This document shows positions 11,071 to 29,932 of a DNA stretch of 29,932 nt, piece by piece. Within the stretch, counting starts at the first letter, position 1. Every line of letters begins with the position of its first letter. Under the pieces are notes generated by a model that did not search any database, was not told where the DNA came from, and worked only from the letters and a program-made list of their open reading frames with translations. Origin of the DNA: a virus (taxonomy: Duplodnaviria > Heunggongvirae > Uroviricota > Caudoviricetes); IMG/VR virus record IMGVR_UViG_640753024_000007, positions 1 through 29,932 of that record. One strand, given 5' to 3'. The position numbers and the translations under genes are program-made.

Positions 11071-11625
11071 TCAATTATCTAAAATTGTGCTAAATCTTTT
11101 TATTACCATTAAGAACGTTATAACAGTGATAAAAAAGGATGTATAGGCTAAAAAGCTAACAATATATGCAGGTGCGCGAAAATACCATTTCATTAAATCC
11201 ACTGCATTGTCAGGCAGGAAATATATTATCACTGAAAATATAACCAATACTATTGAAGTTAATATTGCATAAGCGACGTTGTGGCATAACTGCTCATATA
11301 TGGTTTTGTTAGTGTTTAATGATATCAATTTGTCTCGGGATTTGTTTCCTTCAATTATGTCTGATATCTTAGTGATGGTTTTTTGTTTTTGTTCATAAAT
11401 CATTATTACTGCACTCATTAATAGTGCTGTTGTAATAGCCCCGAAGTTAACGAAGACGGAAGCAATTGCCGGTTTCATTATTCCGTATGTCCGGCACAGA
11501 ACGAAAGAAAGAGATAACGGAACAATAAAATGTACGATAATGTCGCTCATCAACATTGTTCCACGCTGATCTGACATTGTTTTGTAGTGTTTTATTATTA
11601 CACCCAGCACATTTATTTTATTCAT
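11071..11625 (-). CDS. Four-TM small membrane protein, candidate effector of a two-gene module
   Basis: 184-aa ORF with four hydrophobic helices; its ATG overlaps the stop of the upstream 310-aa gene (ATGA); very AT-rich. Confidence 0.65.
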   Translation of the reverse strand: MNKINVLGVIIKHYKTMSDQRGTMLMSDIIVHFIVPLSLSFVLCRTYGIMKPAIASVFVNFGAITTALLMSAVIMIYEQKQKTITKISDIIEGNKSRDKLISLNTNKTIYEQLCHNVAYAILTSIVLVIFSVIIYFLPDNAVDLMKWYFRAPAYIVSFLAYTSFFITVITFLMVIKRFSTILDN

Positions 11626-12554
11626 ATAATCACCCCTTTGTTTCCGCTATGCAGTTCTAACAATATATCATTAGAAAGGTTTTTTATCGTGTCATGAAGT
11701 GCTGTTAGATCAGGTATGCCTGTTAATGGGTCGATTTTTAAATCATTATCATCTAACTCTGCAGAAATTCCTTTTTTTAGTATAGTCTCATAATTGAAAA
11801 CGACAGTCCGACTGCCGAGTTGTAAGCTTACTTTTATTGCATCACATTTATCTTCAATAATCTCAATGATGTTTCCTATATTCTTGTTTCTTAAATCCCT
11901 GAAACTTCCGAACATGCCATCGTTTGCTTTTATTATTAAGTCTGTCTTGATGTTTGTTTTGTTTTGACCAAAGGAATCAGCAATGTCTTTTGGTGCTTTA
12001 TATCCTTGAGCCTTAATTTGTTTTAATTCGGAATTGAGAATATATTGAGGGATTTTCTTATGATGTAATGGATTGATTCTTGCTTCGAGTTGAAATTTGT
12101 TTTTTAGATATTCAGTGATAGAATCAGAAAGGACACCTCGGGCAGAAATATTATCGCAAGAGTGGAATGCAATAATTCCTTCTTCAAGGGCGTCTGGTAG
12201 GTATATTAAAATATAACGTTCTTTGAGTGTTACATCATAAGCAGTTGTCCTGTAGTGGATTTTTTTGAGTTTTACATCTTTTATTTCACTGCTTTCTCCA
12301 TATTTCCCAACTTTTATATAACCATATATAATTTTCTTTGAGTTATCAAAGTGAAGTTTAGCGTGTTGTTCCAGAGATATTTTAGTTTTGGATACGCCAA
12401 ACTCGATGGGGGTGTTTTTATATAGAGTAAAATAATCAACAAAAAGTTCATATGCCGTTTTTTTATTACTTAAACCCAATTCATTAAGTTTTTTGCTGGC
12501 TCGACTGCCTTTATGGGTCAATACGCGGAATGAATAGAAATTAACGCTGTGCAT
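11622..12554 (-). CDS. 310-aa soluble protein of unknown function, candidate sensor/partner of the membrane protein
   Basis: AAAGGA RBS; Lys/Ile/Asn-rich, AT-rich composition unlike the flanking prophage genes. Confidence 0.65.
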   Translation of the reverse strand: MHSVNFYSFRVLTHKGSRASKKLNELGLSNKKTAYELFVDYFTLYKNTPIEFGVSKTKISLEQHAKLHFDNSKKIIYGYIKVGKYGESSEIKDVKLKKIHYRTTAYDVTLKERYILIYLPDALEEGIIAFHSCDNISARGVLSDSITEYLKNKFQLEARINPLHHKKIPQYILNSELKQIKAQGYKAPKDIADSFGQNKTNIKTDLIIKANDGMFGSFRDLRNKNIGNIIEIIEDKCDAIKVSLQLGSRTVVFNYETILKKGISAELDDNDLKIDPLTGIPDLTALHDTIKNLSNDILLELHSGNKGVII

Positions 12555-16058: not shown

Positions 16059-16105
16059 ATCGCATACATTTTATGTAAATGTGATATTTTGCCGTATAGT
16101 GTGTA

Positions 16106-16130
16106 AACCCGCTTAAATGCGGGTTTTTTG
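16106..16130 (+). terminator. Intrinsic terminator downstream of Q
   Basis: CCCGC-ttaaat-GCGGG followed by TTTTTT. Confidence 0.7.
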
Positions 16131-16202
16131 CTTAACTCTGTGGACCTTTTTATCTGTAGTTGTAAGATATGGATATTCTTACAATTTAGGTCGGTGAGCT
16201 TA

Positions 16203-16967
16203 ATGGAAGAACAGCACGGTAATTACTTTATAAAACGAATTCAGTTGATTGGAAGAGGTGCATTTGGCTTTGTTGAACACGTTAAGGTTTACAACCTCAA
16301 CAAGGGTGAATGTGGGGATTATGCTAGAAAGGTTTTAGCCCCCGAAAAACCAGAGCTTTTGGCGCAAATAGAGCAGTTTAGAAGGCGTTTTAAAAGGGAG
16401 GTCGTGTATCAATCACATTGCGTACATAGCAATATTGTTCCTATTTATTTGTGCGATTTGTTTGCCGAGAATCCATGGTTCATTATGGATAAAGCAGAAT
16501 GTGATCTTGAGCACGAAATAACGAACAACCTTCTTACAACAGATCAAAAAATTTCAATAGTGAAAATGGTATTAGATGGTGTAGCTCACATCCATGCGAA
16601 AGGCTATTTACACAGAGATATAAAACCATTTAATGTCTTGCGATTTAGCGACGGAACATACAAGGTGTCTGATTTTGGTCTGGTAAAAGATACAAATCCC
16701 GAAGGGGATACCACTAAATTGACCGAGATCGGTACCCGTATGGGAAGTACAAGATATATGGCTCCCGAGATTTTATATAATGCCGAGTATTCAGTTAAGA
16801 CTGATGTTTATGCGGTGGGGCGGTTAATTGAGGACTTAAATTTAGATGATAAAAAAATAAAGCCTATCATAGCGAAGTGTACCAGGATGGATAAAGATGA
16901 TAGATATCAGACAATAGATGATGTGGCGTTTGATTTTGTGCATTCTTTTTTAAGGAGTGAGTCATGA
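16203..16967 (+). CDS. Hanks-type Ser/Thr protein kinase (kinase domain only)
   Basis: Gly-loop GRGAFGFV, beta3 Lys in YARKVL, catalytic loop HRDIKPFN, DFG, APE; AT-rich. Confidence 0.85.
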   Translation: MEEQHGNYFIKRIQLIGRGAFGFVEHVKVYNLNKGECGDYARKVLAPEKPELLAQIEQFRRRFKREVVYQSHCVHSNIVPIYLCDLFAENPWFIMDKAECDLEHEITNNLLTTDQKISIVKMVLDGVAHIHAKGYLHRDIKPFNVLRFSDGTYKVSDFGLVKDTNPEGDTTKLTEIGTRMGSTRYMAPEILYNAEYSVKTDVYAVGRLIEDLNLDDKKIKPIIAKCTRMDKDDRYQTIDDVAFDFVHSFLRSES

Positions 16968-17707
16968 TTCAGCTGATAGCGACTTCATCATTCTCGTATC
17001 CAAAAGAACCAGGTAGGGTCAACGAAGATTCATTGCTTCCTCCCAAAATTGTAGGGGATGGCATCTTATTTGCCGTAGCTGATGGTGTAGGTTCATACAC
17101 TGGTGCCAGTCAGGCTTCATCAATGGCAATTGCTGAGCTTTCAGCATTGACAAGCTTATCTTTTGACACAGTTCCGGATGTATTTGATGAAGTTAAGCGA
17201 AAGGTTATGTCGTTAGCTGATGTTAATGATGAGTTCGATAAAGCTGCTACTACACTTACGTTTTGTTATGTTTGTGATAGCGGAATTATTATTGGTCATA
17301 TTGGTGATTGTCGTTTGTATTGCATTGGAGAGAAGAAAGCATACCAATTGACGAAGGACGATACCAGGCATCAGATGCTAATTGATCAGAATATTTTTAA
17401 ACCCAGAGATTTGAAGGATAAACCGGGCAAAAATATCTTAACGACGGCTATAGCCTCAAATGTTGATATGGAATACGACTGTGATTTTATCACATGGAAA
17501 GATTTACCTAGTATTAACGGGGTATATCATCTGTGTATCATGTCTGATGGGGTTCATAACGTTTGGGAAAAACGCCCCAGATTTACATCAAATACGATGA
17601 GTAATAGTCAGAAGTTTTCTAATGGCATTTTGCGTCGTATAGAGAGAGCCGGACCTGATGATGACTTTTCTTTAGTAAGTATAATGGTGCGTGTGACGTC
17701 AGATTAG
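16964..17707 (+). CDS. PP2C-family (PPM) Ser/Thr phosphatase
   Basis: ATGA overlap with the kinase stop; metal-binding motifs NEDS, AVADGVGS, GDCR and SDGV. Confidence 0.8.
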   Translation: MIQLIATSSFSYPKEPGRVNEDSLLPPKIVGDGILFAVADGVGSYTGASQASSMAIAELSALTSLSFDTVPDVFDEVKRKVMSLADVNDEFDKAATTLTFCYVCDSGIIIGHIGDCRLYCIGEKKAYQLTKDDTRHQMLIDQNIFKPRDLKDKPGKNILTTAIASNVDMEYDCDFITWKDLPSINGVYHLCIMSDGVHNVWEKRPRFTSNTMSNSQKFSNGILRRIERAGPDDDFSLVSIMVRVTSD

Positions 17708-17926
17708 TTGTATAAACTCAGTAGGGAATGCTAATTTCACATACAACATAGTTAAAGAAAACTTAATTTTAATGTAAAAAGGCTGCCCTCAGGCGGTCTT
17801 TTTATGCTCGAAAATTGATGCAGTACGTTAAACGCGCTGGTGGTTGCGAATACCGTTTTTTCAGCTTGCTGGCTTTTTAGACAAGAGTTATTGGTATGTC
17901 ACGTTAACCAGAAAAGGGAAAAAGAC

Positions 17927-18124
17927 ATGCTAAAACAGCAGGATATGACCGAAACCGCCAGAGTGGTGTTTAATGAATTAAGCGTCACCGAACCGGCGAC
18001 CGTCGGGGAAATTGCGCAGAATACTTACCTTTCACGCGAACGCTGCCAGTTAATACTGACTCAGCTTGTTATGGCGGGTCTGGCAGATTATCAGTTCGGT
18101 TGTTACAGACGCCTTCCTCAGTGA
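17927..18124 (+). CDS. Small hypothetical protein (65 aa)
   Basis: AAGGGA RBS before ATG 17927; followed by a terminator. Confidence 0.5.
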   Translation: MLKQQDMTETARVVFNELSVTEPATVGEIAQNTYLSRERCQLILTQLVMAGLADYQFGCYRRLPQ

Positions 18125-18133
18125 AGGTTTTTT
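18112..18133 (+). terminator. Intrinsic terminator overlapping the stop of the small gene
   Basis: CCTTC-ctcagt-GAAGG followed by TTTTTT. Confidence 0.5.
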
Positions 18134-18274
18134 AATTTGTGGTAATGGGCGGCTGGTGGGTGTTAGCGGCACCTGCCAGCCATCTGCTCATGCGTTGGGG
18201 TCACAAGCAAACCTCAGGCCCATCTGCTTTGCGCAAAAGCGGTATGAGCCTATCAGAGAAGTGCTTATTGATCT

Positions 18275-19321
18275 ATGGTTAATACTGTAAAAATATCCAG
18301 TTGTGAGTTAATCAACGCTGATTGCCTGGAATTTATCCAGACCTTACCGGAAAACTCTGTCGACCTGATAGTCACAGACCCGCCATACTTTAAAGTGAAG
18401 CCCGAGGGTTGGGATAACCAGTGGAAGGGCGACGATGATTACCTGAAATGGCTGGATCAGTGTCTGGCGCAATTCTGGCGGGTACTGAAACCTGCCGGAA
18501 GTCTCTACCTGTTCTGTGGTCATCGCCTGGCATCTGATATCGAAATCATGATGCGTCAGCGCTTTAATGTGCTGAACCACATTATCTGGGCGAAGCCGTC
18601 CGGACGCTGGAACGGATGCAACAAGGAAAGCCTGCGGGCGTATTTCCCGGCAACAGAACGCATTCTGTTTGCAGAACATTATCAGGGGCCATACCAGCCC
18701 AAAAATGACGGCTATGCGGCAAAGGGGCGCGAGCTAAAACAGCACGTCATGGCCCCGCTGATTTCTTACTTTCGTGATGCGCGTGAATCACTGGGAATAA
18801 CGTCAAAACAGATAGCGGAAGCCACCGGAAAGAAAAACATGGCTTCGCACTGGTTTGGTACCAGTCAGTGGCAGTTACCGAACGAGGGTGATTACAACAA
18901 ATTGCAGGAGTTGTTTGCGCGTGTTGCGGCAGAAAAACATCAGCGCGGGGAACTGGAAAAGCCACACCACCAGCTGGTCAGCACATACAGTGAACTGAAC
19001 CGGCAATATGCCAGCCTGCTGGCAGAGTACAAATCTTTACGGCGTTATTTTTCCGTATCGGCTGCTGTTCCTTATACGGATGTCTGGACGTACAAGCCAG
19101 TGCAGTATTATCCGGGCAAACATCCCTGTGAAAAACCAGCGGATATGTTACGTCAGATAATTACCGCCAGCAGTCGTCCGGGAGACTTGGTTGTCGACTT
19201 TTTTATGGGGTCAGGCTCCACAATTAAAGCCGCAATGACGCTGGGGCGTCGGGCAATTGGTGTGGAACTGGAAAAAGAGAGATTTAATCAAACTGTAACT
19301 GTAATAGAAAATAATCTTTAA
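18275..19321 (+). CDS. DNA methyltransferase (beta-class amino-MTase, DPPY motif; N6-adenine or N4-cytosine)
   Basis: Motif IV LIVTDPPYF lies N-terminal to motif I DFFMGSGST (beta-class order); no adjacent restriction endonuclease. Confidence 0.85.
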   Translation: MVNTVKISSCELINADCLEFIQTLPENSVDLIVTDPPYFKVKPEGWDNQWKGDDDYLKWLDQCLAQFWRVLKPAGSLYLFCGHRLASDIEIMMRQRFNVLNHIIWAKPSGRWNGCNKESLRAYFPATERILFAEHYQGPYQPKNDGYAAKGRELKQHVMAPLISYFRDARESLGITSKQIAEATGKKNMASHWFGTSQWQLPNEGDYNKLQELFARVAAEKHQRGELEKPHHQLVSTYSELNRQYASLLAEYKSLRRYFSVSAAVPYTDVWTYKPVQYYPGKHPCEKPADMLRQIITASSRPGDLVVDFFMGSGSTIKAAMTLGRRAIGVELEKERFNQTVTVIENNL

Positions 19322-19385
19322 ACACGCTTTCTTTTATTTATTAATTATTGAAACAATAAAAACATATGAGTATATATTACAAATA

Positions 19386-19416
19386 TTGACATTGATTTTT
19401 ATTGAAAAAATATCTT
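19386..19416 (+). promoter_or_regulatory. Candidate sigma70 promoter for the tRNA pair
   Basis: TTGACA at 19386-19391 with TATCTT/AATATC candidates 17-19 bp downstream, about 70 nt before the first tRNA. Confidence 0.35.
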
Positions 19417-19487
19417 ATCTCGTTAATATTCTCACCCGGTTCCGAGGGGGTATTGCTGGGGCATTTTATTTTTCTTGAGGAACCATT

Positions 19488-19563
<76 letters not shown>

Positions 19564-19566
19564 TAT

Positions 19567-19641
<75 letters not shown>

Positions 19642-19996
19642 TCATTATTCTGGCAACACGAATTATACAGCACTGGCGTGTTTTTTTACGTGGGGGCAGG
19701 TTGTTTTAAGACATCTTTGGTCCTCAGGCTATGGTTTAAGGTCGGTTATAGCCTCAGTGCTGATTTTTTACACCAATGGAATGGTGCATTATCGGTGGAG
19801 ATTTAGTATTTCCTGGCAGGGCTGATGATGCACTATCCCGGTGTTGTAAAAACACTACAGAGGTGTTCCTCAGTGCGAGGGTGGTTTAAAGAGTCGGTTT
19901 AGCGGGAAACCACAGTATCCTTGTGGGGCTGGATGCTTCGGGAGGCACCCGACACTTCTGAATACAATTAAATCATGCGTTTTTATATGCCATTAA

Positions 19997-20021
19997 CCGC
20001 CGCTCCAGGCGGTTTTTTTTT
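19997..20021 (+). terminator. Intrinsic terminator
   Basis: CCGCC-gctcca-GGCGG followed by T9. Confidence 0.7.
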
Positions 20022-20641
20022 ATTCAAAGTTCGGGGTTACAAGTGCTCGCTTCCACTACTTTGGTTTTTACAATTATAGTTTTTGGGAGAATCTTCATGG
20101 GGCGTGCTTCATCCTTTGCAATTCGCTGATCCTGGTGTATGAGACAATGAAGTCCATGCGGTAACGAAGGTCGGATATCTGCTCGGTTTTATTCTGGTAA
20201 TTTGGGGCCTTCGCTTTTTACGGATGCGGGCAGCACAAGGTTATTGGGGCGACGGCCATCATTGTTGCATTTGCAGGAGTTATTCTGAGTCCGACAAGAA
20301 TGTGCTGTTGAGTGCACGGTTGGCTGAAAGAAACTGCCACCTGAAGAATGGTGAACTTATTTAGTAGGGGATCCTGGATGAAATTGAACGGGATGATAAC
20401 TCCGAAATTAGTCCACTGAGGAATGCCTTATACAAGAGATCATGGATAACCCTCGGGCATTTACAGGAAGCAAACGCTACTTACTTCACTACCCCGGAGA
20501 AGTGGGGACTGTCAATATGACAGATAACAAAATCTGAAAATGAGTCTCTCCAGTTGAGAAATATACGATGAAGGAGCATTCTGTTCAGCGCAAAGTAATC
20601 CGTTTTGTGATGAATAATCTCGAGAGTCATTTTTCATTCCT

Positions 20642-20670
20642 GCCAGCCTCCCCAGAGCTGGCTTTTTTTT
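20642..20670 (+). terminator. Intrinsic terminator
   Basis: GCCAGC-ctccccaga-GCTGGC followed by T8. Confidence 0.7.
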
Positions 20671-20733
20671 GAGGCCTGTTCTGACGGGCTTTTTTGTATT
20701 CGCTCCACGTCCCATACATATCAAATCTGAATA

Positions 20734-20781
20734 ACACCACACAAAGGCATCTGCGGATGTCTTTGGTGTGGTGTTTTTTTT
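20734..20781 (+). terminator. Strong intrinsic terminator (long hairpin) followed by a second small GGCC hairpin with its own T-run
   Basis: ACACCACACAAAG...CTTTGGTGTGGTGT stem of about 13 bp followed by T8; then GGCC-gctggt-GGCC followed by T6. Confidence 0.7.
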
Positions 20782-20821
20782 GGGCCGCTGGTGGCCTTTT
20801 TTAATTTACAGGAGAAAAAGT

Positions 20822-21172
20822 ATGTCTGAACCCTTATCCGGTTCCGGCACAGCTGCTGCGCTCGGTGGGGCGACTGTTTTCGGGCTGTTTACCGGAACGG
20901 ATTTCGGGATTGTGTTTGGCGCATTTGCGGGGGCGTTGTTTGTTGCAACGATACCGCAGGCGCTTTCAGCATGGCGGGTGAAGGGGCTGCTGCATCACGG
21001 TCTGAAACTGAACCGTCTGGCTGAACGGGCGGCGCAGGATCTGTCATTCATGGAGCCGCCTCCCGCGCAGCCGGAAGAAAAAATCAGTTTAAGTATGCCG
21101 GGCGCAAAAGCACCGGAGACACCCCGTAAGAAAATACCGCTGCATATGAGGCTTGCAGGAGTGAGACGATGA
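20822..21172 (+). CDS. Hypothetical protein (117 aa) with N-terminal glycine-zipper hydrophobic segment; translationally coupled to gpW
   Basis: AGGAGA RBS; ATGA overlap with the W-like gene; occupies the position where lambda terminase large subunit would end. Confidence 0.5.
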   Translation: MSEPLSGSGTAAALGGATVFGLFTGTDFGIVFGAFAGALFVATIPQALSAWRVKGLLHHGLKLNRLAERAAQDLSFMEPPPAQPEEKISLSMPGAKAPETPRKKIPLHMRLAGVRR

Positions 21173-21420
21173 TGAATCCCCCCGGCGTGTTTGCCGGAAT
21201 GTCAAAAGAACAACTGAAGGCGGCACTGAATGAAGCTCAGGCGGCCTATATTGAGCTGCTTTCAGGGCGGCGTGGCGTGAGTTTCTCCTATGCACAGGGA
21301 GACGGCACGCGCACCGTGACTTATTCACAGGCCAGCAGTGCTGATTTGCTGGCGCTGATCGCGACGCTCCAGCGGGCGCTGGGGATAAGGACGAGAAGGT
21401 CTCTGAGCGTGCGTTACTGA
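21169..21420 (+). CDS. Head-tail joining protein, lambda gpW-like
   Basis: 83 aa; immediately precedes the portal gene; charged N-terminal helix and a GDGTRTVTYS segment recall lambda W. Confidence 0.6.
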   Translation: MMNPPGVFAGMSKEQLKAALNEAQAAYIELLSGRRGVSFSYAQGDGTRTVTYSQASSADLLALIATLQRALGIRTRRSLSVRY

Positions 21421-21428
21421 GGTGAGCG

Positions 21429-22511
21429 ATGATAGTCGATAAAAATGGCAGACCTTTTCCGCAACAGACGGAAAAAAAACGCGCACTGAATGACAGCGGG
21501 CGGATCCCCTACGACTCTGCCGGTTTCTCGCACGGTTCGGTGGTGGGCTGGAACCCGGTACTGTGGTCACCGGACAATGAAGTGAATATCTGGCGTAACC
21601 GTATGGTTGCCAGAATGCGCGACCTTGTCCGCAATGACGGCTGGGCGAATGGCAGTATCACCCGTCTGCTGGACAATGCCATGGGGGTGGTTTTTCGCCC
21701 GAGGATGAAGCCTGACTACCGGATGCTGGCAGAGATGACCGGCAACCGGGCATTTGATGCAGACTGGGCGGATGAGTACGGGCGCTGTGTGGAGGCACAC
21801 TGGCGCAACTGGGCCAGTGATGCCGGGTGTTACTGCGACCTTGAACGCAGACAGACCCTGCCGCAGCTTTTCCGGCTGGCATTCCGCCACAAGATGATCG
21901 ACGGCGATGCGCTGGCGGTCATCCACTGGCGACCGGACAGAATAGCCCCTGGTCGCGGGCGTTACGGTACGGTGGTACAGGTGATTGACCCCGACCGGCT
22001 GAGTAACCCGAACGATGCGTTTGACATGCCGCATATTCGTGGCGGTGTGGAAATTGACGCGGACGGGGTGCCGGTAGCCTATCACATCCGGTCCGCACAC
22101 ATGGGGGACTGGTGGAGCGGCAGTGACACGATGCACTGGGAACGCGTGCCGCGTGAAACGTCGTGGGGAAGGCCGGTGGTGGTGCATGACTTTGATCATG
22201 ACCGTGCGGGCCAGCATCGTGGTGTCGGTATTCTCAATCCCGTGGTTCAGCGTCTGAAAATGCTTATCAAGTACGACCAGGTGGAGCTGGAAGCCGCCAT
22301 CATCAATGCCATGTTCGGTTTTTTCATCACGTCGCCCTATGACCCGAAACTGACAGAAGATCTGATGAGTGACGCGGAGGTGATTAATGGCTACCAGGAT
22401 GCGCGCATGAAGTATCACGATACTAACCGGATTTCGATGTCGGGCGTGCGTATTCCCATCACGTTCCCCGGCGAAGAGCCAAAAGCCGTGAGCGCCGCCC
22501 GACCGAGGTGA
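21429..22511 (+). pseudogene. Portal protein (lambda gpB-like), 3'-truncated by deletion
   Basis: 360 aa versus about 530 for lambda B; recalled B motifs conserved (VRNDGWANG, CYCDLERRQT, DRLSNPN); ORF terminates where capsid-E homology begins in another frame. Confidence 0.75.
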
Positions 22512-22942
22512 TTTTCACGCCGTCAGCCTGGACAGCGTTCATGAACGACAGTTTCATTCGTGAGAACGCCATCAACATGCCCGCCCTGAACCCGACCAGC
22601 AACGTGGTGAACCCGGGGACGCAGATCAACACCGGTGCGGTGTACAAGGGCAGGTGGGGGAACTTCAACCTCTGGCTGTATAACGACTGGTTCATCGATC
22701 CGGATGACGGAACCGAAAAACCGATGCTGGATGACGGCAACGTCATTCTGACCGGGGCGGCCCTGATGGGGACCCGCGCGTTCGGCTGTATCATGGATCC
22801 GGCGTTTAATTACGGCCAGATGGCCTATGCCCCGAAAATGTGGGATCAGCAGGATCCGGCACAGCGTTTCCTGATGATGCAGTCGGCACCGATTGTCATC
22901 CCGTCCCGTGTCAATGCGTGCCTGTGCGCGTCGGTGGTGTGA
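22508..22942 (+). pseudogene. Major capsid protein (lambda gpE-like), C-terminal third only
   Basis: VIFTPSAWTAF, GTRAFGCIMD and FLMMQSAPIV resemble the C-terminal part of lambda E as I recall it; no N-terminal two-thirds present. Confidence 0.7.
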
Positions 22943-22943
22943 G

Positions 22944-23129
22944 ATGGCGTCCGGCAAAAAGGGCGCGCCGGTTGACTATGTTGTGCTGCGCGGTTGTGTG
23001 CAGCACAACGGACAACGGGTGGCGCAGGGTAATGTGATCACCCTGAGCGAAAGCGAGGCGCAGCGTCTTCTGCGTCTGGGGGTGATTGTTCCACTGGCGG
23101 AGATGAAGGGTGATGGCCGGACCGGTTGA
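22944..23129 (+). CDS. Small head-associated protein (61 aa), function unknown
   Basis: Lies between the capsid and FII-like genes; weak GGTG RBS. Confidence 0.4.
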   Translation: MASGKKGAPVDYVVLRGCVQHNGQRVAQGNVITLSESEAQRLLRLGVIVPLAEMKGDGRTG

Positions 23130-23445
23130 CTGGGACAAAAATCTGTTGTCCCCGTTGTTCGGGGTGTTTGGTGAGGAATGCGAACACCGCCCGCGTGGCG
23201 GTGAGGCGTACCGGCTGACCGGGATTTTTGACCGGGCGTACACGCAGCAGCTTGTCGGCGAGGACGGGGGCACGGAATCAAACTCCACGCTGCCCGTGCT
23301 GGGCGTGCGGGATGCGGCGTGTCGCGTGAAGCCGAAGCAGGGCGATATTTTCCTCATCGTGCGCACGGGGGAGCTGTATATCGTGCGGGATGTGCAACCG
23401 GACAGCCACGGCGGCACGCGACTTGAACTGAACAGGGTGAAGTGA
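23113..23445 (+). CDS. Head-tail connector, lambda gpFII-like
   Basis: GIFDRAY...RVKPKQGDIFLIVRTGELYIVRDVQPDSHGGTRLEL parallels the recalled lambda FII (GVFDDPEN...RRGDTLTIGEENFWVDRVSPDDGGSCHLWL). Confidence 0.6.
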   Translation: MAGPVDWDKNLLSPLFGVFGEECEHRPRGGEAYRLTGIFDRAYTQQLVGEDGGTESNSTLPVLGVRDAACRVKPKQGDIFLIVRTGELYIVRDVQPDSHGGTRLELNRVK

Positions 23446-23564
23446 TGAATACCGCAGAAGCCAGAAAAATTGTCACCCGGGCACTGAACGACTGTTCCGG
23501 TTTTGGCGGTCGGGTGTATTCCCCGCGCACCCTGCCGGTGATGCCGGACCAGTACAGGGGCTGA
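23445..23564 (+). pseudogene. 39-aa remnant, probable 5' fragment of a tail gene
   Basis: ATGA overlap with the FII-like stop; ORF stops after 39 codons where a baseplate-protein remnant begins in another frame. Confidence 0.35.
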
Positions 23565-23593
23565 GCAGTGCCACGGCGGCACTGAAGGCACGG

Positions 23594-23791
23594 GTGGAGA
23601 GTGCCATCAGCGAGGTGCTGTACAACGTGGGTGAACCGGACGGCAGCGGGGTGATTCACCTTTCAGACCTCTGGTACGCCATTGCGGACACAGAGGGGAC
23701 AGACGGGTTCATTCTGGTGTCTCCTGACAGCAACATCACGCTGTCGCAGGGAGAGCTGCCGGTGACCGGAACGATAACCTGGGCAACATGA
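23594..23791 (+). pseudogene. C-terminal remnant of a baseplate J-like protein (Mu gp47 / P2 gpJ family)
   Basis: No start codon upstream in frame; ATGA overlap with the downstream gp48-like gene, the Mu-type baseplate/tail-fiber gene order. Confidence 0.45.
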
Positions 23792-26334
23792 GGAACAGGA
23801 TGAGTCGTTTTTCACATGATGACTACACGCGCGCGATGCTGAACCTTCTGCCGTCAGGGATTGCCTGGAGCCGTCTGCCTGACAGCGTGCAGCACAGGCT
23901 GATACGCGGACTGGCACAGGCGTACCGGAAGAGTGACGCTGATGCGTGCGCACTGATAACGGGCGCCTTCCCGGAAACGGCGGATGCGCTCACTGATGAG
24001 TGGTATGCCTCGCTGGGGCTGAATGATGAATGCGGGACGCAGGCATCCACCACAGACCCGGCGCAGGCCAGAAAATTCATTCTGGCGAAACTGCTGTCGA
24101 CGGGCGGGCAGAGTGTGGCGTATTTCACGGAACTTGCGGCGACGATGGGGTACAGCATCAGTATCCGTGAGTACCGCACACCACTGTGCGGATTTTCGTG
24201 GAGCGGGCATCTGCTGAGTGACGACAACCGGTTTAACTGGACCGTGGTGGTGGCCCCGCCGGGGGATGAGGTGACCACCTCACGGGCGTACCTGGAGTGC
24301 CTGTTTCGTCGTTATGCCCCGGCGCATACGCTGGTGACGTTTGAGTGGCAGTCATCGTACAGCGCCGCCCTGAGCATTGCGTGGGACAACATCACACACG
24401 TTCTTTCCGGTGCGCTCACGGCAGATGAGGGGGTGGTGGTGTCGGGGGTGACGGTGAATGTTGTCATCAAATCCGCGTCGGGACAGCGGTATGTGGCGAC
24501 AGTGACAACGGACAGTGAAGGGCACTGGTCGTATGAAATGGAGGATGATGATTTTGCAAACGGCTGGTACAGCAGCACGGCTTACAACGACCTGGTCAGA
24601 CTACGTCAACTTCCGGCGGGACAAAAATCCTGTAGCTACCTTGCGAGTAATACCCCCAGTCTGGTGAGTATTGACAGCGGCGCATTCCGTTTTTGCAAAA
24701 ACGCTACGGCATTCGACAGTGCATTTTACCGGTGTAAAGGACTGACTGCGATACCTCCGGGGCTGTTTGCTGAGTGCGCCAGCGCCACGACGTTCTATCA
24801 GGCATTTTACGAATGTACGGGACTCACTGCAGTCGGTGACAGCGCGTTTGCCGGCTGCACAGGCGTAACGACTTTTCGTCAGGCGTTTTACGGCTGTACC
24901 GGGCTGAGAGCGGTGGGTGAGAGCGTGTTTGCCGGGTGCACCGGTGCCACGACGTTTGAGGATACCTTTTATGGTTGTACCGGACTGAGCACGGTGGGTA
25001 ACAGCGTGTTTGCCGGATGTGCCAGTGCCACAACGTTTTTGCAGGCCTTTTATGGCTGCCAGGCGCTGACATCATTAGGTCAGGGGATATTTGCAGACTG
25101 CACCGGGGTGACGACATTCCTCCAGGCTTTTTATAACTGCAGGGGACTGACGGCATTGCCGGAAGGGATGTTTGACAGCTGCACTGCCGTGACCACGTTC
25201 AGTAATGCCTTTTATGGCTGCACGGCTCTGACAGCAATACCGGAAGGGTTGTTTGACAGTTGTACCGGGGTGACGACATTCAACCGGACGTTTTATGGCT
25301 GCGCGGCCCTGACAGCGATACCGGCAAAATTGTTCGCAAACTGCACAGAGGTTGCGACGTTTGAGGGGGTGTTTTCGGGATGCTCGGGGCTGGTAACGAT
25401 ACCGGCAGGGTTATTTGAAAAACTCACCAGTGTCACGACGTTTGACAGCGCGTTTTACGGGTGCAGGGCACTGACAACAGTGGGTGACAGAGTATTTGCT
25501 GGTTGTACAGGTACCACAACATTCGCAAGCGTATTTGAAGGTTGCACCGGACTGGTCACGATACCGGCTGACGTGTTTGCTGGTTGTTCGGGTGTCAGAT
25601 CGTTTTACCGGTCGTTTTTTGGGTGTACAGGACTGGCAATGGTCCCCCCGGAATTGTTTGCAGATTGTACCGGAGCCACGACGTTCTATACGACATTTTA
25701 CCGTTGTACCCGTCTGTCGGAAGTTCCTGCAGAGTTGTTTTCCGGTTGTACCGGAGCAAAGTCTTTCTATAAGACTTTTGGCGAATGTACCGGGTTGTCG
25801 GAGGTACCGGCCAGATTATTTGCAGATTGCACCGGTGCCACGACGTTTGAGGGGGTGTTTTCGGGATGCCGGGGGCTGACAACGATACCTGCAGGGTTGT
25901 TCGCTAACAGCGCCAGTGTCACCACTTTCTTTCAGGCGTTTTACGAATGCACGGGCCTGACCGCGATACCGTCAGGATTGTTTGCAGACTGTGTAAGTGT
26001 GACAACCTTCAGGCAGACCTTTTACGGTTGTTCCGGGCTGAGATCGATGGGCGACGGCGTGTTTGCGGGGTGCGCCAGTGCGACGACGTTTGAGGGCACC
26101 TTTTACGGTTGCACAGGGCTGGAAAGTGATGTGAATGACATCCTCCCGGCGGAGGAGTACCCGCAAATAACCAGTGTGTACAGTTGTTTTTACAACTGCC
26201 GCTCATTGCAGGGAAGCGGATGTGCGCTCATTGAGAAGTTGCCTGGCGTGACGAGTTACGCGGATGCGTTTTATAACTGCGTATCCCTGAGCGATTTCAG
26301 GACCTTGTCTGAGCGTTATCCAGTCTGGGTTTAA
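23788..26334 (+). CDS. Tail protein: N-terminal Mu gp48/YmfQ-like domain (DUF2313) fused to about 19 tandem 27-aa Cys-containing LRR-like repeats
   Basis: N-terminus DDYTRAMLNLLPSGIAWSR typical of the gp48/YmfQ family; repeats of consensus AFYGCTGLTAIPxGLFAxCTGVTTFxx from about residue 295 to 790. Confidence 0.75.
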   Translation: MRNRMSRFSHDDYTRAMLNLLPSGIAWSRLPDSVQHRLIRGLAQAYRKSDADACALITGAFPETADALTDEWYASLGLNDECGTQASTTDPAQARKFILAKLLSTGGQSVAYFTELAATMGYSISIREYRTPLCGFSWSGHLLSDDNRFNWTVVVAPPGDEVTTSRAYLECLFRRYAPAHTLVTFEWQSSYSAALSIAWDNITHVLSGALTADEGVVVSGVTVNVVIKSASGQRYVATVTTDSEGHWSYEMEDDDFANGWYSSTAYNDLVRLRQLPAGQKSCSYLASNTPSLVSIDSGAFRFCKNATAFDSAFYRCKGLTAIPPGLFAECASATTFYQAFYECTGLTAVGDSAFAGCTGVTTFRQAFYGCTGLRAVGESVFAGCTGATTFEDTFYGCTGLSTVGNSVFAGCASATTFLQAFYGCQALTSLGQGIFADCTGVTTFLQAFYNCRGLTALPEGMFDSCTAVTTFSNAFYGCTALTAIPEGLFDSCTGVTTFNRTFYGCAALTAIPAKLFANCTEVATFEGVFSGCSGLVTIPAGLFEKLTSVTTFDSAFYGCRALTTVGDRVFAGCTGTTTFASVFEGCTGLVTIPADVFAGCSGVRSFYRSFFGCTGLAMVPPELFADCTGATTFYTTFYRCTRLSEVPAELFSGCTGAKSFYKTFGECTGLSEVPARLFADCTGATTFEGVFSGCRGLTTIPAGLFANSASVTTFFQAFYECTGLTAIPSGLFADCVSVTTFRQTFYGCSGLRSMGDGVFAGCASATTFEGTFYGCTGLESDVNDILPAEEYPQITSVYSCFYNCRSLQGSGCALIEKLPGVTSYADAFYNCVSLSDFRTLSERYPVWV
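24670..26160 (+). repeat. In-frame 81-bp tandem repeat array (about 19 units) inside the tail protein gene
   Basis: Periodic recurrence of ...TTTTA(C/T)GG(C/T)TG(C/T)AC(C/G)GG... every 81 nt; translated repeats each carry two Cys. Confidence 0.8.
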
Positions 26335-26380
26335 TAACAGGAGGATCCCGCCGCTCCGGTGGCGGGGTAAGGAGATATGC

Positions 26381-27172
26381 GTGAAGAAAATATCTGATAT
26401 CACACCGTATGTTGATGAAAACGACGAGTTTACTGACGGCGCGCCTGCCACAGGGCTGAAGCCTACGCCGTTGCTGGCGGCGTGGTTTAACGTCATTCAG
26501 CGGGAGCTGGTGAAGGTTGTGGAGAGTGCGGGGCTGACGCTGGATCCGACTGATGACACACAACTCTGGCAGGCGTTATCGAAATACTTTGCCTCACAGG
26601 AGAATGTGAACACCGCCATGGGTGCTCTGGGTACGATGGCCGGTCAGAACAGTGATGCGGTGGAAATCACCGGCGGCGCGATAACAGGGACATCCCTCAC
26701 TGGCGATCTGACGGGCAATGCGGATACAGCCACAAAACTGAAAACGGGCCGGACAATCCAGGTAAATCTTGGCAGTACGGGTGCAGTTACTTTTGATGGC
26801 AGTGCGAATGTCACGCCGGGCGTGACCGGCACATTGCCGGTGAGCAGTGGTGGTACCGGGGCCACCACTGCGTCAGGGGCCAGAACAAATCTGGGGCTGG
26901 GAGATGTGGCAACCCAGAATCTGAGTACGCTCGATGCCCGTTACCTGCTGACGACGGGCGGTGTGTCGGCAGTGAGACTGAGTAGCGCCAGCTCATACAC
27001 GCCTTCCGGTAACGAGGTGTCGTGGACCAGTAATCTCTCCTACGGAAATGTGCTCACAGGGATTATTGTTCAGGAAACGGGATCAAATTCAGCAGATAAC
27101 ATTGGCGGAATTTATTACAGGCAGATTCAGTACTGCATAAACGGTACATGGATAAATGCGGTATCACTGTAA
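26381..27172 (+). CDS. Tail fiber protein (short, Gly/Thr-rich)
   Basis: GTG start with TAAGGAGA RBS; GTSLTGDLTGNADTATKL-type fiber repeats; followed by a tail fiber assembly gene. Confidence 0.75.
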   Translation: MKKISDITPYVDENDEFTDGAPATGLKPTPLLAAWFNVIQRELVKVVESAGLTLDPTDDTQLWQALSKYFASQENVNTAMGALGTMAGQNSDAVEITGGAITGTSLTGDLTGNADTATKLKTGRTIQVNLGSTGAVTFDGSANVTPGVTGTLPVSSGGTGATTASGARTNLGLGDVATQNLSTLDARYLLTTGGVSAVRLSSASSYTPSGNEVSWTSNLSYGNVLTGIIVQETGSNSADNIGGIYYRQIQYCINGTWINAVSL

Positions 27173-27184
27173 AGGAGAGCACTA

Positions 27185-27724
27185 ATGATAAACATCAAAA
27201 ATTTCAGGCAATACACCCCGGAAAACCCGCCCGTGGCGTGGGCGACATATCTCATCAGCGAGGATGGTCAGGACTGGTATGAATGCCAGACGCAGTTTGC
27301 AGAGGATACATACAAAGTTGCGTACGACAGTGACGGTATCGTGCGCAGTATTTCGACCGATGTGTCGGCACTTTGTCCTGTCAGTCTGAGTGTTGCTGAG
27401 GTTGAGTCGCTGCCGGACGGTGCGGATATCGACGGCAATTGGGTGTTTGACGGGGAGAGTGTGGTTGCGCGGACGCTGACGGCAGCGGAGTGGCAGGCAA
27501 GGGCGGAATCGCAACGAAGCGCATTGATATCGGATGCGAAGGAGAGAATCAGCCTCTGGCAGTCAGAGCTTCTGCTGGACATCATCACTAATTATGACAA
27601 GGAAAGCCTGACGGAATGGCTGGCTTACATAAAGGCGCTTCAGGCGCTGGATTTAAGTGGTGTGACGGATGAGGCGAGCTACAACGCGACAGTCTGGCCG
27701 GACGAACCTAGAGTCACGTCATAA
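27185..27724 (+). CDS. Tail fiber assembly protein (Tfa)
   Basis: 179 aa; position after the tail fiber gene; Tfa-like N-terminus with YTPENPPVAW. Confidence 0.8.
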   Translation: MINIKNFRQYTPENPPVAWATYLISEDGQDWYECQTQFAEDTYKVAYDSDGIVRSISTDVSALCPVSLSVAEVESLPDGADIDGNWVFDGESVVARTLTAAEWQARAESQRSALISDAKERISLWQSELLLDIITNYDKESLTEWLAYIKALQALDLSGVTDEASYNATVWPDEPRVTS

Positions 27725-27963
27725 AGGCTACTGAGAAGCTTTTTTGCTTCAGTGAAACAAAATATTGGCTACTGTAGCATCGTGTTTAAAGAAAACCGGC
27801 ATGGTTCATGCCGGTTATATCAAAGTACGATATAAAATAAGTATAAAAGGATTTCAGGAGAGACAAACTAACAAAAAGGCATATTTGAATCAAATATATG
27901 CCTGTGTATTGTTATTAATTTATCGTTTCGTGATTTTTTATGACCTATTTATACATATAAGAG

Positions 27964-28754
27964 TTAACTTTGACTCTCAGTGTGTTTTTGTAACCATTTT
28001 TTTATTATGGTATTTACTTCTTTTGCATGTGTGACATTCAATGCATGATTGGCGTCAGGTATAATCGCAAGCTCAGAGTGCGGGATCATTTTGTGCATTT
28101 CAAGAGCTTTCTCCGGTGGTATTCCTGTATCGACGGATCCATGAAGAATCAGGGTGGGCGCTTTGATCGTATGAACTTTATCTGAAATATCGTCTCGCTC
28201 CAGCATTGCATTCATAGCTGGTTTGATGTTTTCAGGTTTATGACGTAGCCATACTTGTCTCCATATCTCTGCTTCAGAGATATTCTTTCCAAAGAAAACG
28301 GGTAATAATGAGGATATTATCTCTTCTTTTATGAGTGAGTTATGCCATCCATTACATAGTTCCATATAACTGGATGCAATTTCTGGCGGGTCCTGCTCGA
28401 CCTGAGTTGCCATAAGGATTAGTCCTGACAAACGCTCTGGATGTGACAGGGCAAATCGTAATGATATATACCCCCCCATCGACATCCCCCCCCTAAAATA
28501 AACTTATCCAGTTGTAGTGAGTCTGCGACGTTTAAAATGTCATCAACGATGTCATAGAGCGAGAATGGCTCAGTTTTTTCGGAGGGGGCATCGAAACCCC
28601 GAACATTAATGCAAACAACTCTATGTTTTTCTTTTAGTTCGTCAAACTGGTATTTGAACATTTCATTATTCATGAAAAATCCATGAACGAATATGGTAGG
28701 GGGATTGTTTTTATTTGTTTCAGTGTATCCAGAGTCAGTAAACGTAAAATTCAT
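27964..28754 (-). pseudogene. Alpha/beta-fold hydrolase interrupted by a frameshift in a poly-G tract at the nucleophile elbow
   Basis: Two overlapping minus-strand ORFs (28419..28754 N-part, 27964..28485 C-part); G-M-S-M-G-G nucleophile motif, HGSVD and ANHAL present; frames joined by changing the 8-G run at 28486-28493 to 9 or 6. Confidence 0.7.
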
Positions 28755-28889
28755 GAGTACTCCGTTATTTAGACAGTTATGTTGTACATTTGACTAATTA
28801 TAGCGAAGAGCTTTATTGACCTGCTGAACAGAAATCCACTTGTCAAAAACCTTCGAAGTTTATCTACCAAGATGGAGATAATCTTGTCA

Positions 28890-29188
28890 AGTATTCGTTA
28901 GGGCATAAAAGCATGGGTTTAATAGTAAATCTAAGACTTTTACGTGCGACAACACGCCTCATTCGTGTTGTGTTTTGTCGCAGTTTGTTCTTAAATTCTC
29001 GCAAATCATTTCCCTCTAATTTGAAGTAGTGCCTCCCACAAACAAACCGCTCAGAGTTACGGGTGTAATTGACTCTGATGTTGTTGATCTTGGCACCTAA
29101 AGCTGATCCAAAAGTTCGGTGATGATAACAGGAATCTGGTTATGGATGAGCGGGGATATGGTTTCAACAGAGATTTGAGTTGTCATAA
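28890..29188 (-). pseudogene. Degraded duplicate of the antirepressor N-terminus
   Basis: MTTQISVETISPLIHNQIPVIITELLDQL then stop, continuing out of frame as ...RFVCGRHYFKLEGNDLREFKNKL; parallels the N-terminus of the intact gene at 29372..29932. Confidence 0.6.
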
Positions 29189-29371
29189 TGACGTCCTCTA
29201 GTGGTTTCTAAACTTAAACTATCACCACCGTCAGGTTCCAATCATCGGGTGGTGAGACGCACAGGGTTGGAACTACCGGGAAACCGACCGACGAGCTTTT
29301 CAGCTCCCCCATGCGCCCCACAATAATTCATATGTGCGCGTGCATACGAGAAAAAACACTTGTTATATCTG

Positions 29372-29932
29372 CTAAAGCTGCATCAGCCTTTCCACCAGTT
29401 GTTCTTTACGGGCAACGAGCCAGCCGTGTTGCTCCAGATAAAATTTAAACCGTTCCAGAGTGCATACCATCGCATCGGCGGGGACTTTTTCTGTGAACTC
29501 TACCTGACCGTGTTTATCAAAGTGGATCAGTAATGCGCATCCATCATTTGGGGTGGGTGAGTTTTGTGTTGCTGGTGGTTGTTTTTGGCTGAAATAACAG
29601 TCTTCCAGTTTTTCGAACACTTCCCATGCCTGATCGGTTTCGAGCATTTTGGCATGGCGGGCTGCGCCACGTTCTGTCCAGAGGATAAGGGAACGGGCAT
29701 TTTTACCAACTAACCCGATTGTTTCAGGTCTGTTCTTAAACTCGCGTAATTCGTTTTTTTCAATTTTAAAGTAATGCTTTCCTACCACGAATCGCGTCGT
29801 GTTGTTCCGAAAGTTATCAGAAATGTTTTTGATTTTTGTTCCGTATAACTGCGCCAGAAGTTCAGTTGTAATAACGGGGACCTGGTTGTGGGTGATTGCA
29901 GGAAGAGTGTCGACAGAAATTTGAGTGGGCAT
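29372..29932 (-). CDS. Phage antirepressor (AntA/KilA-N-type N-terminal domain; C-terminal domain shared with the Rha protein at 4372..4929)
   Basis: 186-aa ORF whose ATG is the last codon in the window (true start could lie beyond it); C-terminal FTEKVPADAMVCTLERFKFYLEQHGW parallels the Rha C-terminus FTETVPDGALVCTLDTFRFYLEKQGW. Confidence 0.7.
   Translation of the reverse strand: MPTQISVDTLPAITHNQVPVITTELLAQLYGTKIKNISDNFRNNTTRFVVGKHYFKIEKNELREFKNRPETIGLVGKNARSLILWTERGAARHAKMLETDQAWEVFEKLEDCYFSQKQPPATQNSPTPNDGCALLIHFDKHGQVEFTEKVPADAMVCTLERFKFYLEQHGWLVARKEQLVERLMQL

What the first reader, a model, noticed from the sequence alone, without database searches (positions are those of the whole stretch)
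23445..23791. Mosaic junction from lambda-like head genes to a Mu/e14-type baseplate and tail-fiber module
After the FII-like gene only a 39-codon ORF remains, followed in another frame by a start-less C-terminal remnant of a baseplate J-like gene and then the gp48-like gene. Tail shaft, tape-measure and tip genes are all missing.
Basis: inference. Interest (0 to 1): 0.4.

Follow-up and report, generated by a model that had tools for sequence, protein, structure and literature searches.

The report
Tail-gene deletion scar in defective prophage
The odd gene fragments are the scar of a 9.4-kb deletion that removed almost all the tail genes from a prophage of E. coli E24377A, which is ordinary prophage decay and not a new joint between two kinds of phage.

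Summary
After an intact lambda FII-type gene (23110-23445) comes a 39-codon ORF (23445-23564). It is followed in another frame by the last 78 codons of a baseplate J/Mu gp47 gene (23555-23791), then a Mu gp48-type gene fused to leucine-rich repeats (23800-26334).

The window is the ompW-integrated prophage of E. coli E24377A (CP000800.1). Intact relatives sit at the same site in strains DS26-1 and C8 and are 99.9-100% identical on both sides of the junction. Between those flanks they carry 9,415 bp that the window lacks: the rest of a tail terminator gene, DUF2635, sheath, tube, chaperone, tape measure, gp43-46 homologues, and J codons 1-306. The break lies at 23553-23555 with 3 bp of microhomology (TAC).

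Two more deletions, holin to terminase and portal to capsid, and a contracted repeat gene show a decaying prophage. The lambda-type head plus Mu-type contractile tail layout predates the deletion. It occurs in viable myoviruses (Serratia phage BZS1, Citrobacter phiNP).

The closest described analogue is cryptic prophage e14 of K-12 (beeE'-'jayE-ymfQ). Interest is low.

The parts
23110..23445 (+). Intact lambda FII-type head-tail attachment (head closure) gene. It is the last complete gene left of the scar.
   Evidence: Pfam Phage_attach E 3e-17. PHROG 82, head closure Hc1, E 3.7e-18. 100% nucleotide identity to DS26-1 across window 22498-23555.
23445..23564 (+). 5' stump of the tail terminator gene: 37 native codons (23445-23555), then Arg-Gly-stop read from the J sequence out of frame.
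   Evidence: Residues 1-37 are identical to the 186-aa protein of DS26-1/C8. PHROG 6774 positions 3-39 of 180. The full-length protein has a gpU-like tail terminator fold.
23553..23555 (.). Deletion junction. The trinucleotide TAC is shared by both parental sequences. 9,415 bp of the intact prophage are missing here.
   Evidence: blastn gives window 22498-23555 = L001 5528-6585 and window 23553-24569 = L001 16001-17017.
23555..23791 (+). 3' remnant of the baseplate J / Mu gp47-type gene: codons 307-384 of 384, plus the stop codon. It has no ATG; the first in-frame start-like codon is GTG 23594.
   Evidence: Identical to the C-terminus of DS26-1 J. The parent protein matches Pfam Baseplate_J at E 7.1e-56. 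The remnant matches PHROG 6 at E 6.6e-6. Precomputed PF26079 Baseplate_J_C.
23800..26334 (+). Mu gp48-type baseplate wedge domain fused to BspA-type leucine-rich repeats. The frame is intact, but the repeat array is contracted to 844 aa, against 1470 aa in DS26-1 and 1443 aa in C8.
   Evidence: Pfam Phage_Mu_Gp48 E 5.9e-21 and LRR_5 E 5.3e-20.
26381..27172 (+). 263-aa tail-fibre-like protein, retained intact.
   Evidence: Lies within the block where window 25207-29932 is 99.8% identical to L001 19533-24258. The N-terminus matches the BZS1 tail fibre p23 and the C-terminus matches the Mu S' region. Annotated 'phage tail protein' in C8.
27185..27724 (+). Tail fibre assembly protein gene, retained intact.
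   Evidence: Precomputed Pfam Caudo_TAP. 33% identity to the Mu U' region.
22498..22505 (.). Second deletion junction, 3,056 bp. It joins portal codon ~359 to the last ~144 codons of the major capsid gene and removes the protease, scaffold-like and decoration genes. Microhomology is 4-8 bp.
   Evidence: Window 20979-22505 = L001 945-2471 and window 22498-23555 = L001 5528-6585. The portal fragment matches Phage_portal_2 positions 6-301 of 354. The capsid fragment matches Phage_cap_E positions 193-325 of 329.
20979..20980 (.). Third deletion junction, 5,391 bp. It runs from inside a holin gene to inside the terminase large subunit gene and removes the lysis genes and the terminase small subunit.
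   Evidence: Window 17819-20980 = L002 24605-27763 and window 20979-22087 = L002 33155-34263.

Best explanation
The region is the scar of a single 9,415-bp internal deletion in a prophage integrated at ompW of E. coli E24377A.

The parental phage was a temperate myovirus. Its head and packaging genes are lambda-type (A, W, B, C, D, E and FII homologues). Its contractile tail is Mu-type (gp38-gp48 homologues).

The deletion joined codon 37 of the tail terminator gene to codon 306 of the baseplate J (gp47) gene, across a 3-bp microhomology (TAC). That fits illegitimate, homology-independent recombination; no insertion sequence is left behind at the junction.

What the deletion left:
- a 39-codon stump: 37 native codons plus Arg-Gly-stop;
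- an out-of-frame J remnant of 78 codons with no ATG;
- an untouched downstream gp48-LRR / fibre / fibre-chaperone block.

Two similar deletions (5.4 kb, holin to terminase; 3.1 kb, portal to capsid) also occurred. Together the three make the prophage unable to lyse, package, or build heads or tails.

Shown here: the breakpoints, the polarity of the change, and the identity of the fragments.
Inferred: the recombination mechanism, and that the two fragments have no function.
For: 1. Both flanks of the junction match one intact prophage at the same chromosomal site in DS26-1. The left flank is 100% identical over 1,058 bp and the right flank 99.9% over 1,017 bp. The intact prophage holds 9,415 bp of tail genes between them. 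A second intact copy is in strain C8.
2. Polarity is clear. The 39-aa ORF equals residues 1-37 of a 186-aa protein plus RG-stop. The remnant equals residues 307-384 of a 384-aa Baseplate_J protein.
3. The only shared sequence at the break is TAC.
4. Two further deletion junctions of the same kind lie in the same late operon.
5. The junction is reproduced in an independent assembly, Logan SRR9425411, at 99.93% over 6.9 kb.
6. The complete head-tail gene order is collinear with the viable myovirus BZS1 (36-67% aa). Its tail part is collinear with Mu gp38-gp48 and its head part with lambda B, C and E.
7. None of the 8 complete E. coli genomes that carry this J-gp48 region has the junction. The junction 40-mer is absent from the GTDB representatives, JGI metagenomes and IMG/VR. 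The intact left boundary occurs in 5 IMG/VR contigs.
Against: - No direct evidence against the deletion.
- The recombination mechanism is inferred from 3 bp of microhomology only.
- Loss of function of the fragments is inferred, not measured. A GTG at 23594 with a weak Shine-Dalgarno-like GAAGG could allow translation of a 65-aa J C-terminal peptide.
- No intermediate forms carrying only some of the deletions were found, so their order is unknown.
Confidence: 0.95

Rival explanations
1. A true mosaic joint. Recombination between a lambda-like phage and a Mu/e14-like element placed a foreign baseplate/tail-fibre module next to lambda-type head genes.
For: The left genes belong to lambda families (Phage_attach, Phage_portal_2, Phage_cap_E). 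The right genes belong to Mu families (Baseplate_J, Phage_Mu_Gp48). In the intact phages the lambda-type/Mu-type boundary does lie close by, between the FII-like gene and the DUF2635 (Mu gp38) gene.
Against: Both flanks are 99.9-100% identical to a single contiguous prophage that has the full tail module between them. The lambda-head/Mu-tail pairing is conserved and collinear in the distant viable phages BZS1 and phiNP, so it is old. G+C content is uniform across the late region, 57% over 21000-26334.
Confidence: 0.03
2. Assembly or sequencing artefact. The tail genes are present in the real genome but were collapsed out of the assembly.
For: None specific. The neighbouring LRR gene is repetitive and could in principle mis-assemble.
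Against: The junction lies in unique sequence with only 3 bp of overlap. It is present in the finished E24377A chromosome and in an independently assembled read set. Three separate deletions would each need to be an artefact.
Confidence: 0.01
3. A selected remnant. The deletion is real, but its right end is not random. The gp48-LRR, fibre and chaperone genes, and perhaps the J C-terminal domain, are kept because they benefit the host or serve as a fibre-gene reservoir. e14 shows a parallel, since it also ends its deletion inside J and keeps ymfQ-stf-tfa.
For: The downstream block is 99.8% identical to the intact prophage with open frames. e14 independently shows a portal'-'J-gp48-fibre layout. 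The remnant corresponds to a discrete C-terminal domain, PF26079.
Against: There are only two examples. The flanks have almost no substitutions (0 in 1,058 bp and 1 in 1,017 bp), so the deletions look recent and selection has had little time to act. The J remnant has no ATG. The LRR gene has itself lost about 40% of its length. The adjacent hydrolase cargo gene is frameshifted.
Confidence: 0.07

Closest known systems
Cryptic prophage e14 of E. coli K-12 (aaaE'-ymfR-beeE'-'jayE-ymfQ-stfP-tfaP)
   Same: A defective prophage in which an internal deletion ends inside the baseplate J gene. It leaves a C-terminal J pseudogene (jayE) directly upstream of an intact gp48/YmfQ-family gene, fibre and fibre-assembly genes. 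Terminase and portal survive only as fragments.
   Different: - e14 sits at icd, not ompW.
- One deletion runs from portal straight to J. Here portal-to-capsid and terminator-to-J are separate events, and the W, DUF7210 and FII-like genes survive.
- jayE keeps about 263 codons, against 78 here.
- The proteins are only distantly related: J 35%, gp48 domain 26% identity.
- e14 has a Pin-invertible fibre segment and a short YmfQ without leucine-rich repeats.
Intact ompW prophages of E. coli DS26-1 (NZ_CP035879.1) and C8 (NZ_CP010125.1)
   Same: Same integration site, same integrase and same early region (91% of window 1-21000 at 99.3%). The late genes are 99.8-100% identical on every retained segment.
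   Different: They retain the 9.4-kb tail block, the 3.1-kb head block and the 5.4-kb lysis/terminase block, and they have a longer LRR gene. DS26-1 carries an IS1, and it has a different module where the window has a kinase/phosphatase pair.
Serratia phage vB_SspM_BZS1 and Citrobacter phage phiNP (viable temperate myoviruses)
   Same: Collinear late operon from Nu1/A/W/portal/protease/D/E, through the FII-like, terminator and DUF2635 genes, to sheath and on to gp47-gp48. Amino-acid identity to the DS26-1 proteins is 36-67%. BZS1 packages from cohesive (cos) ends like lambda (PMC7556043). phiNP has a contractile tail (PMC6456863).
   Different: Different genera, integration sites and early regions. 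gp48 is not fused to leucine-rich repeats. There is no nucleotide-level similarity.
Bacteriophage Mu tail module (gp37-gp48) and lambda head module (W-FII)
   Same: Gene order and families. DUF2635/gp38, sheath, gp43-gp48 match Mu at 26-49% aa. Portal, protease and capsid match lambda at 28-36% aa.
   Different: Neither phage has both modules together. The terminator has no sequence-level similarity to Mu gp37 or lambda Z, and only a weak one to lambda U. Its relationship to them is seen at fold level only.

Membership tests
Defective (cryptic) prophage with internal deletion | Genes flanking the junction are truncated relative to full-length homologues | tested here: met
   37 of 186 codons of the terminator gene and 78 of 384 codons of J remain.
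Defective (cryptic) prophage with internal deletion | A near-identical intact element exists with extra DNA exactly between the two flanks | tested here: met
   DS26-1 and C8 carry the 9,415 bp missing between the flanks, which are 99.9-100% identical.
Defective (cryptic) prophage with internal deletion | Essential virion or lysis functions are absent, so no particles can be made | tested here: met
   By gene content, sheath, tube, tape measure, gp43-46, the protease and decoration genes, the lysis genes downstream of the truncated holin, and the terminase small subunit are absent. Terminase large subunit, portal and major capsid genes survive only as fragments. Particle production itself cannot be tested with these tools.
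Mosaic (module-exchange) junction between phage types | Left and right flanks derive from different parental genomes, and no single close relative is continuous across them | tested here: not met
   Both flanks come from the same prophage lineage at 99.9% identity or more.
Baseplate J / Mu gp47 / P2 gpJ (Pfam PF04865, PF26079) | Significant match to the family profile | tested here: met
   Parent protein: Baseplate_J E 7.1e-56 and 28% identity to Mu gp47 over 382 residues. Remnant alone: PHROG 6 E 6.6e-6 and precomputed PF26079. The remnant does not reach Pfam-A PF04865, because it lies beyond that domain.
Tail terminator proteins (lambda gpU / Mu gp37 class) | gpU-like alpha/beta fold | tested here: met
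   AlphaFold model with pLDDT 75 and pTM 0.66. Foldseek against the PDB gives 44 hits at E<=1e-3. The descriptions that name the chain are tail terminators (A-1(L) gp7, lambda gpU, T5 p142). Most other hits are neck, collar or connector complexes whose chains were not identified here. The Mu terminator entry 9khy scores E 2.3e-3. The model is only moderately confident.
Tail terminator proteins (lambda gpU / Mu gp37 class) | Gene position between the head-closure gene and the sheath/tube genes | tested here: met
   In DS26-1, C8 and BZS1 the gene lies between the FII-like gene and DUF2635-sheath. Mu gp37 lies between gp36 and gp38-gp39.
Tail terminator proteins (lambda gpU / Mu gp37 class) | Sequence-level homology to gpU or gp37 | tested here: not met
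   hhalign against Mu gp37 gives probability 0.2%. Against lambda U it gives E 0.009 and probability 4.5%. There is no Pfam hit and no PDB sequence hit.
Lambda gpZ (Minor_tail_Z) | Sequence similarity to gpZ | tested here: not met
   hhalign probability 0.1%. No Pfam hit.
Lambda FII (Pfam Phage_attach) | Match above the gathering score | tested here: met
   63.4 bits against a cut-off of 26.
Mu gp48 / YmfQ (Pfam PF10076) | Match above the gathering score | tested here: met
   75.3 bits against a cut-off of 37.4, residues 12-182.

The most novel reading that the evidence does not exclude
The decay is not neutral. The gp48-LRR protein, fibre and chaperone, possibly with the J C-terminal domain, are kept by selection. 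They could act as a host-beneficial surface or adhesin-like module, or as a reservoir of receptor-binding genes for incoming phages. On this reading, deletions ending inside J recur in this phage group, as in e14's jayE.
Probability: 0.06. Interest if true: 0.4.

Novelty: new member of a known kind. Interest (0 to 1): 0.08.

Why it matters
It matters little beyond annotation.

- The 39-aa and 65-aa ORFs called in CP000800.1 should be marked as pseudogene fragments of a tail terminator gene and a baseplate J gene.
- The E24377A ompW prophage should be classed as defective.
- The case is a clean example, resolved to the base, of prophage decay by several short-microhomology deletions with almost no point substitutions.
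- It also assigns a likely function, tail terminator, to the unannotated PHROG 6774 family.

Tried and rejected
- Megablast of the intact 22-kb late region against 50,697 phage records found nothing. Protein-level search was needed to find BZS1 and phiNP.
- The junction 40-mer was scanned in GTDB representative genomes, JGI metagenomes and IMG/VR, with no match in any. Prevalence beyond E24377A and one SRA run is therefore unknown.
- Exact-protein look-ups of the 39-aa stump and the truncated portal, aimed at intermediates carrying only some of the deletions, returned only E24377A and the same Logan contig.
- Sequence-level tests of the terminator family against PDB sequences, Pfam, Mu gp37, lambda U and lambda Z gave no significant match. 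Only the fold search was informative.
- The antisense ORFs across the junction (226, 101, 96 and 50 aa) have no Pfam match.
- The Rfam scan of 22900-24300 gave one sub-threshold hit, taken as chance: CC0196, 20 bits against a gathering score of 35.
- The promoter scan found no sigma-70-like site in 22500-24500.
- The e14 genome paper (Mehta et al. 2004) is not held in the library. Statements about e14 rest on the MG1655 annotation and on my own comparison.

Full report
**What is in the sequence.**
- Gene 23110-23445 matches the lambda FII family: Pfam Phage_attach, E 3e-17.
- Its stop codon overlaps an ATG at 23445, which opens a 39-codon ORF ending at 23564.
- In another frame, 23555-23791 encodes 78 residues ending in a stop.
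- Nine bases after that stop, at 23800, a gene starts whose first 180 residues match Phage_Mu_Gp48 (E 5.9e-21). The rest is made of BspA-type leucine-rich repeats.
- No sheath, tube, tape-measure or other baseplate gene is present anywhere in the window.

**Where the window comes from.** An exact look-up of the 39-aa product places it in E. coli E24377A, CP000800.1.
- Window 23445 corresponds to record position 1441347. The window is therefore about 1417903-1447834.
- It spans a whole prophage. This runs from the integrase (1-1131, minus strand) next to ompW to an ORF6N gene, beyond which lie a partial ompW copy and the trp operon.

**The decisive comparison.** Megablast against complete E. 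coli genomes found eight genomes with the J-gp48 region. None contains the junction.
- In strain DS26-1 the same prophage sits at the same ompW site with a full late operon. It runs: terminase, W, portal, S49 protease, a hypothetical gene, decoration, major capsid, DUF7210, FII-like, a 186-aa protein, DUF2635, sheath, tube, chaperone, tape measure, DNA-circularisation protein, three baseplate proteins, J, the gp48-LRR protein, fibre, and fibre chaperone.
- blastn of the window against this locus gives window 22498-23555 = L001 5528-6585 at 100% identity, and window 23553-24569 = L001 16001-17017 at 99.9%.
- So 9,415 bp of the intact prophage are absent, and the two parental sequences share only TAC at the break (23553-23555).
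- Strain C8 carries a second intact copy at the same locus.

**Identity of the two fragments.**
- The 39-aa product is residues 1-37 of the 186-aa protein followed by Arg-Gly-stop. The 78-aa remnant is identical to residues 307-384 of the 384-aa J protein.
- The J parent matches Pfam Baseplate_J at E 7.1e-56. It is 28% identical to Mu gp47 over its full length.
- The remnant alone still matches PHROG 6 and carries the precomputed Baseplate_J_C domain.
- The 186-aa protein has no Pfam or PDB sequence match. It belongs to PHROG 6774, function unknown.
- An AlphaFold model built from 12 homologues has pLDDT 75 and pTM 0.66. It gives 44 Foldseek hits in the PDB at E<=1e-3. The descriptions that name the chain are tail terminators: cyanophage A-1(L) gp7, lambda gpU and T5 p142. 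Most other hits are neck, collar or connector complexes (for example pyocin R2 collar) whose chains I did not identify. The Mu terminator entry scores just above that cut-off, at E 2.3e-3.
- The gene occupies the position of Mu gp37, between the head-closure gene and DUF2635/gp38-sheath.
- Profile comparisons show nothing for Mu gp37 or lambda Z. For lambda U there is only a weak collinear match, E 0.009 and probability 4.5%.
- I therefore call it a tail terminator on fold and synteny, not on sequence.

**Not a mosaic joint.**
- The lambda-type head plus Mu-type contractile tail layout is the native design of this phage group.
- The whole late region of DS26-1 is collinear, gene for gene, with Serratia phage vB_SspM_BZS1 at 36-67% amino-acid identity. 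BZS1's own annotation labels the tail genes Mup38-Mup48.
- BZS1 is a myovirus that packages from cohesive (cos) ends like lambda (PMC7556043). The equally related Citrobacter phiNP is a viable phage with a contractile tail (PMC6456863).
- In the intact phages the boundary between lambda-type and Mu-type genes falls around the terminator gene. The left end of the deletion lands there by coincidence. The joint in the window was still created by loss of DNA, not by exchange of modules.

**The rest of the late region tells the same story.**
- A 5,391-bp deletion joins a holin gene to the 3' part of the terminase large subunit gene at 20979/20980.
- A 3,056-bp deletion joins portal codon ~359 to the last 144 codons of the capsid gene at 22498-22505, with 4-8 bp of microhomology.
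- The LRR gene has shrunk from 1470 to 844 codons, most likely by recombination between its repeats.
- The retained segments carry almost no substitutions relative to DS26-1, so the decay was by deletion and looks recent.
- An independent assembly (Logan SRR9425411) has all three junctions at 99.93% identity. This argues against an assembly artefact.
- The junction 40-mer is absent from the GTDB representatives, JGI metagenomes and IMG/VR. The intact left boundary occurs in five IMG/VR contigs.

**Other strands and features.**
- Antisense ORFs across the scar have no family matches.
- No sigma-70-like promoter was found in 22500-24500.
- The one Rfam hit is far below its gathering score.
- The J frame is open from 23441 but has no ATG. 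GTG 23594 with a weak GAAGG upstream is the only plausible start, and it accounts for the 65-aa ORF that gene callers report.

**Mechanism and comparison.**
- The best explanation is illegitimate, microhomology-mediated deletion within a resident prophage, as part of ordinary prophage decay. The breakpoints and polarity are shown. The recombination mechanism and the non-function of the fragments are inferred.
- The closest described analogue is e14 of K-12, where a portal fragment (beeE) abuts a C-terminal J pseudogene (jayE) followed by ymfQ, stfP and tfaP.
- e14 is only a distant relative (J 35%, gp48 26%), and its single deletion has different end points.

**Verdict.** The feature is real but ordinary: a new instance of a well-known kind. 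Interest is low.

Noticed in passing
window 16128-17707 (+): A Ser/Thr protein kinase (279 aa) and a PP2C-type phosphatase (247 aa) lie just downstream of the Q antiterminator gene. Window 16092-17819 has no counterpart in DS26-1, which carries other genes there. The kinase matches PADLOC models mad6 (E 3e-40), PD-T4-6 (E 1.5e-34) and Stk2 (E 6e-28). It may be a prophage-borne anti-phage defence cargo gene.
   Followed up: partly
window 23800-26334 (+); L001 16248-20660: The Mu gp48-type baseplate wedge domain is fused to a very long BspA-type leucine-rich-repeat region: 1470 aa in DS26-1, 1443 aa in C8, 844 aa here. In BZS1 and Mu, gp48 is a short stand-alone protein. This may be an unusual receptor-binding arrangement. 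The copy number of the repeats varies between strains.
   Followed up: partly
L001 1-22050 (intact late region of DS26-1): The 22-kb late operon of this E. coli prophage family has no megablast match in 50,697 deposited phage genomes. The nearest isolates, Serratia BZS1 and Citrobacter phiNP, are only about 55% identical in J. The E. coli lineage seems to have no cultured, sequenced representative.
   Followed up: partly
window 27964-28754 (-): The alpha/beta-hydrolase cargo gene is split into two ORFs (173 and 111 aa). The split comes from a frameshift at a G-run, G8 here against G6 in strain C8, where the gene is intact at 266 aa. DS26-1 has it split as well.
   Followed up: yes
window 11071-12554 (-): Two adjacent genes of unknown function (184 and 310 aa) sit in the early region on the opposite strand. 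They have no PADLOC match. In DS26-1 the second one is cut by an IS1 that the window lacks.
   Followed up: partly
window 19488-19641 (+): tRNA-Thr (TGT) and tRNA-Gly (TCC) genes lie between the DNA methyltransferase gene and the remnant of the lysis region. DS26-1 has them too.
   Followed up: no
window 20768-21172 (+): A 134-codon ORF is created by the holin-to-terminase deletion. It fuses the N-terminal part of a holin (Phage_holin_8) to out-of-frame or C-terminal terminase sequence. A truncated holin might still insert in the membrane.
   Followed up: no
L001 6475-7035; PHROG 6774: PHROG 6774 is listed as unknown function, and its homologue is annotated 'ATP-binding tail sheath protein' in BZS1 and phiNP. 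A predicted structure matches tail terminator proteins, so the published annotation is probably wrong.
   Followed up: yes
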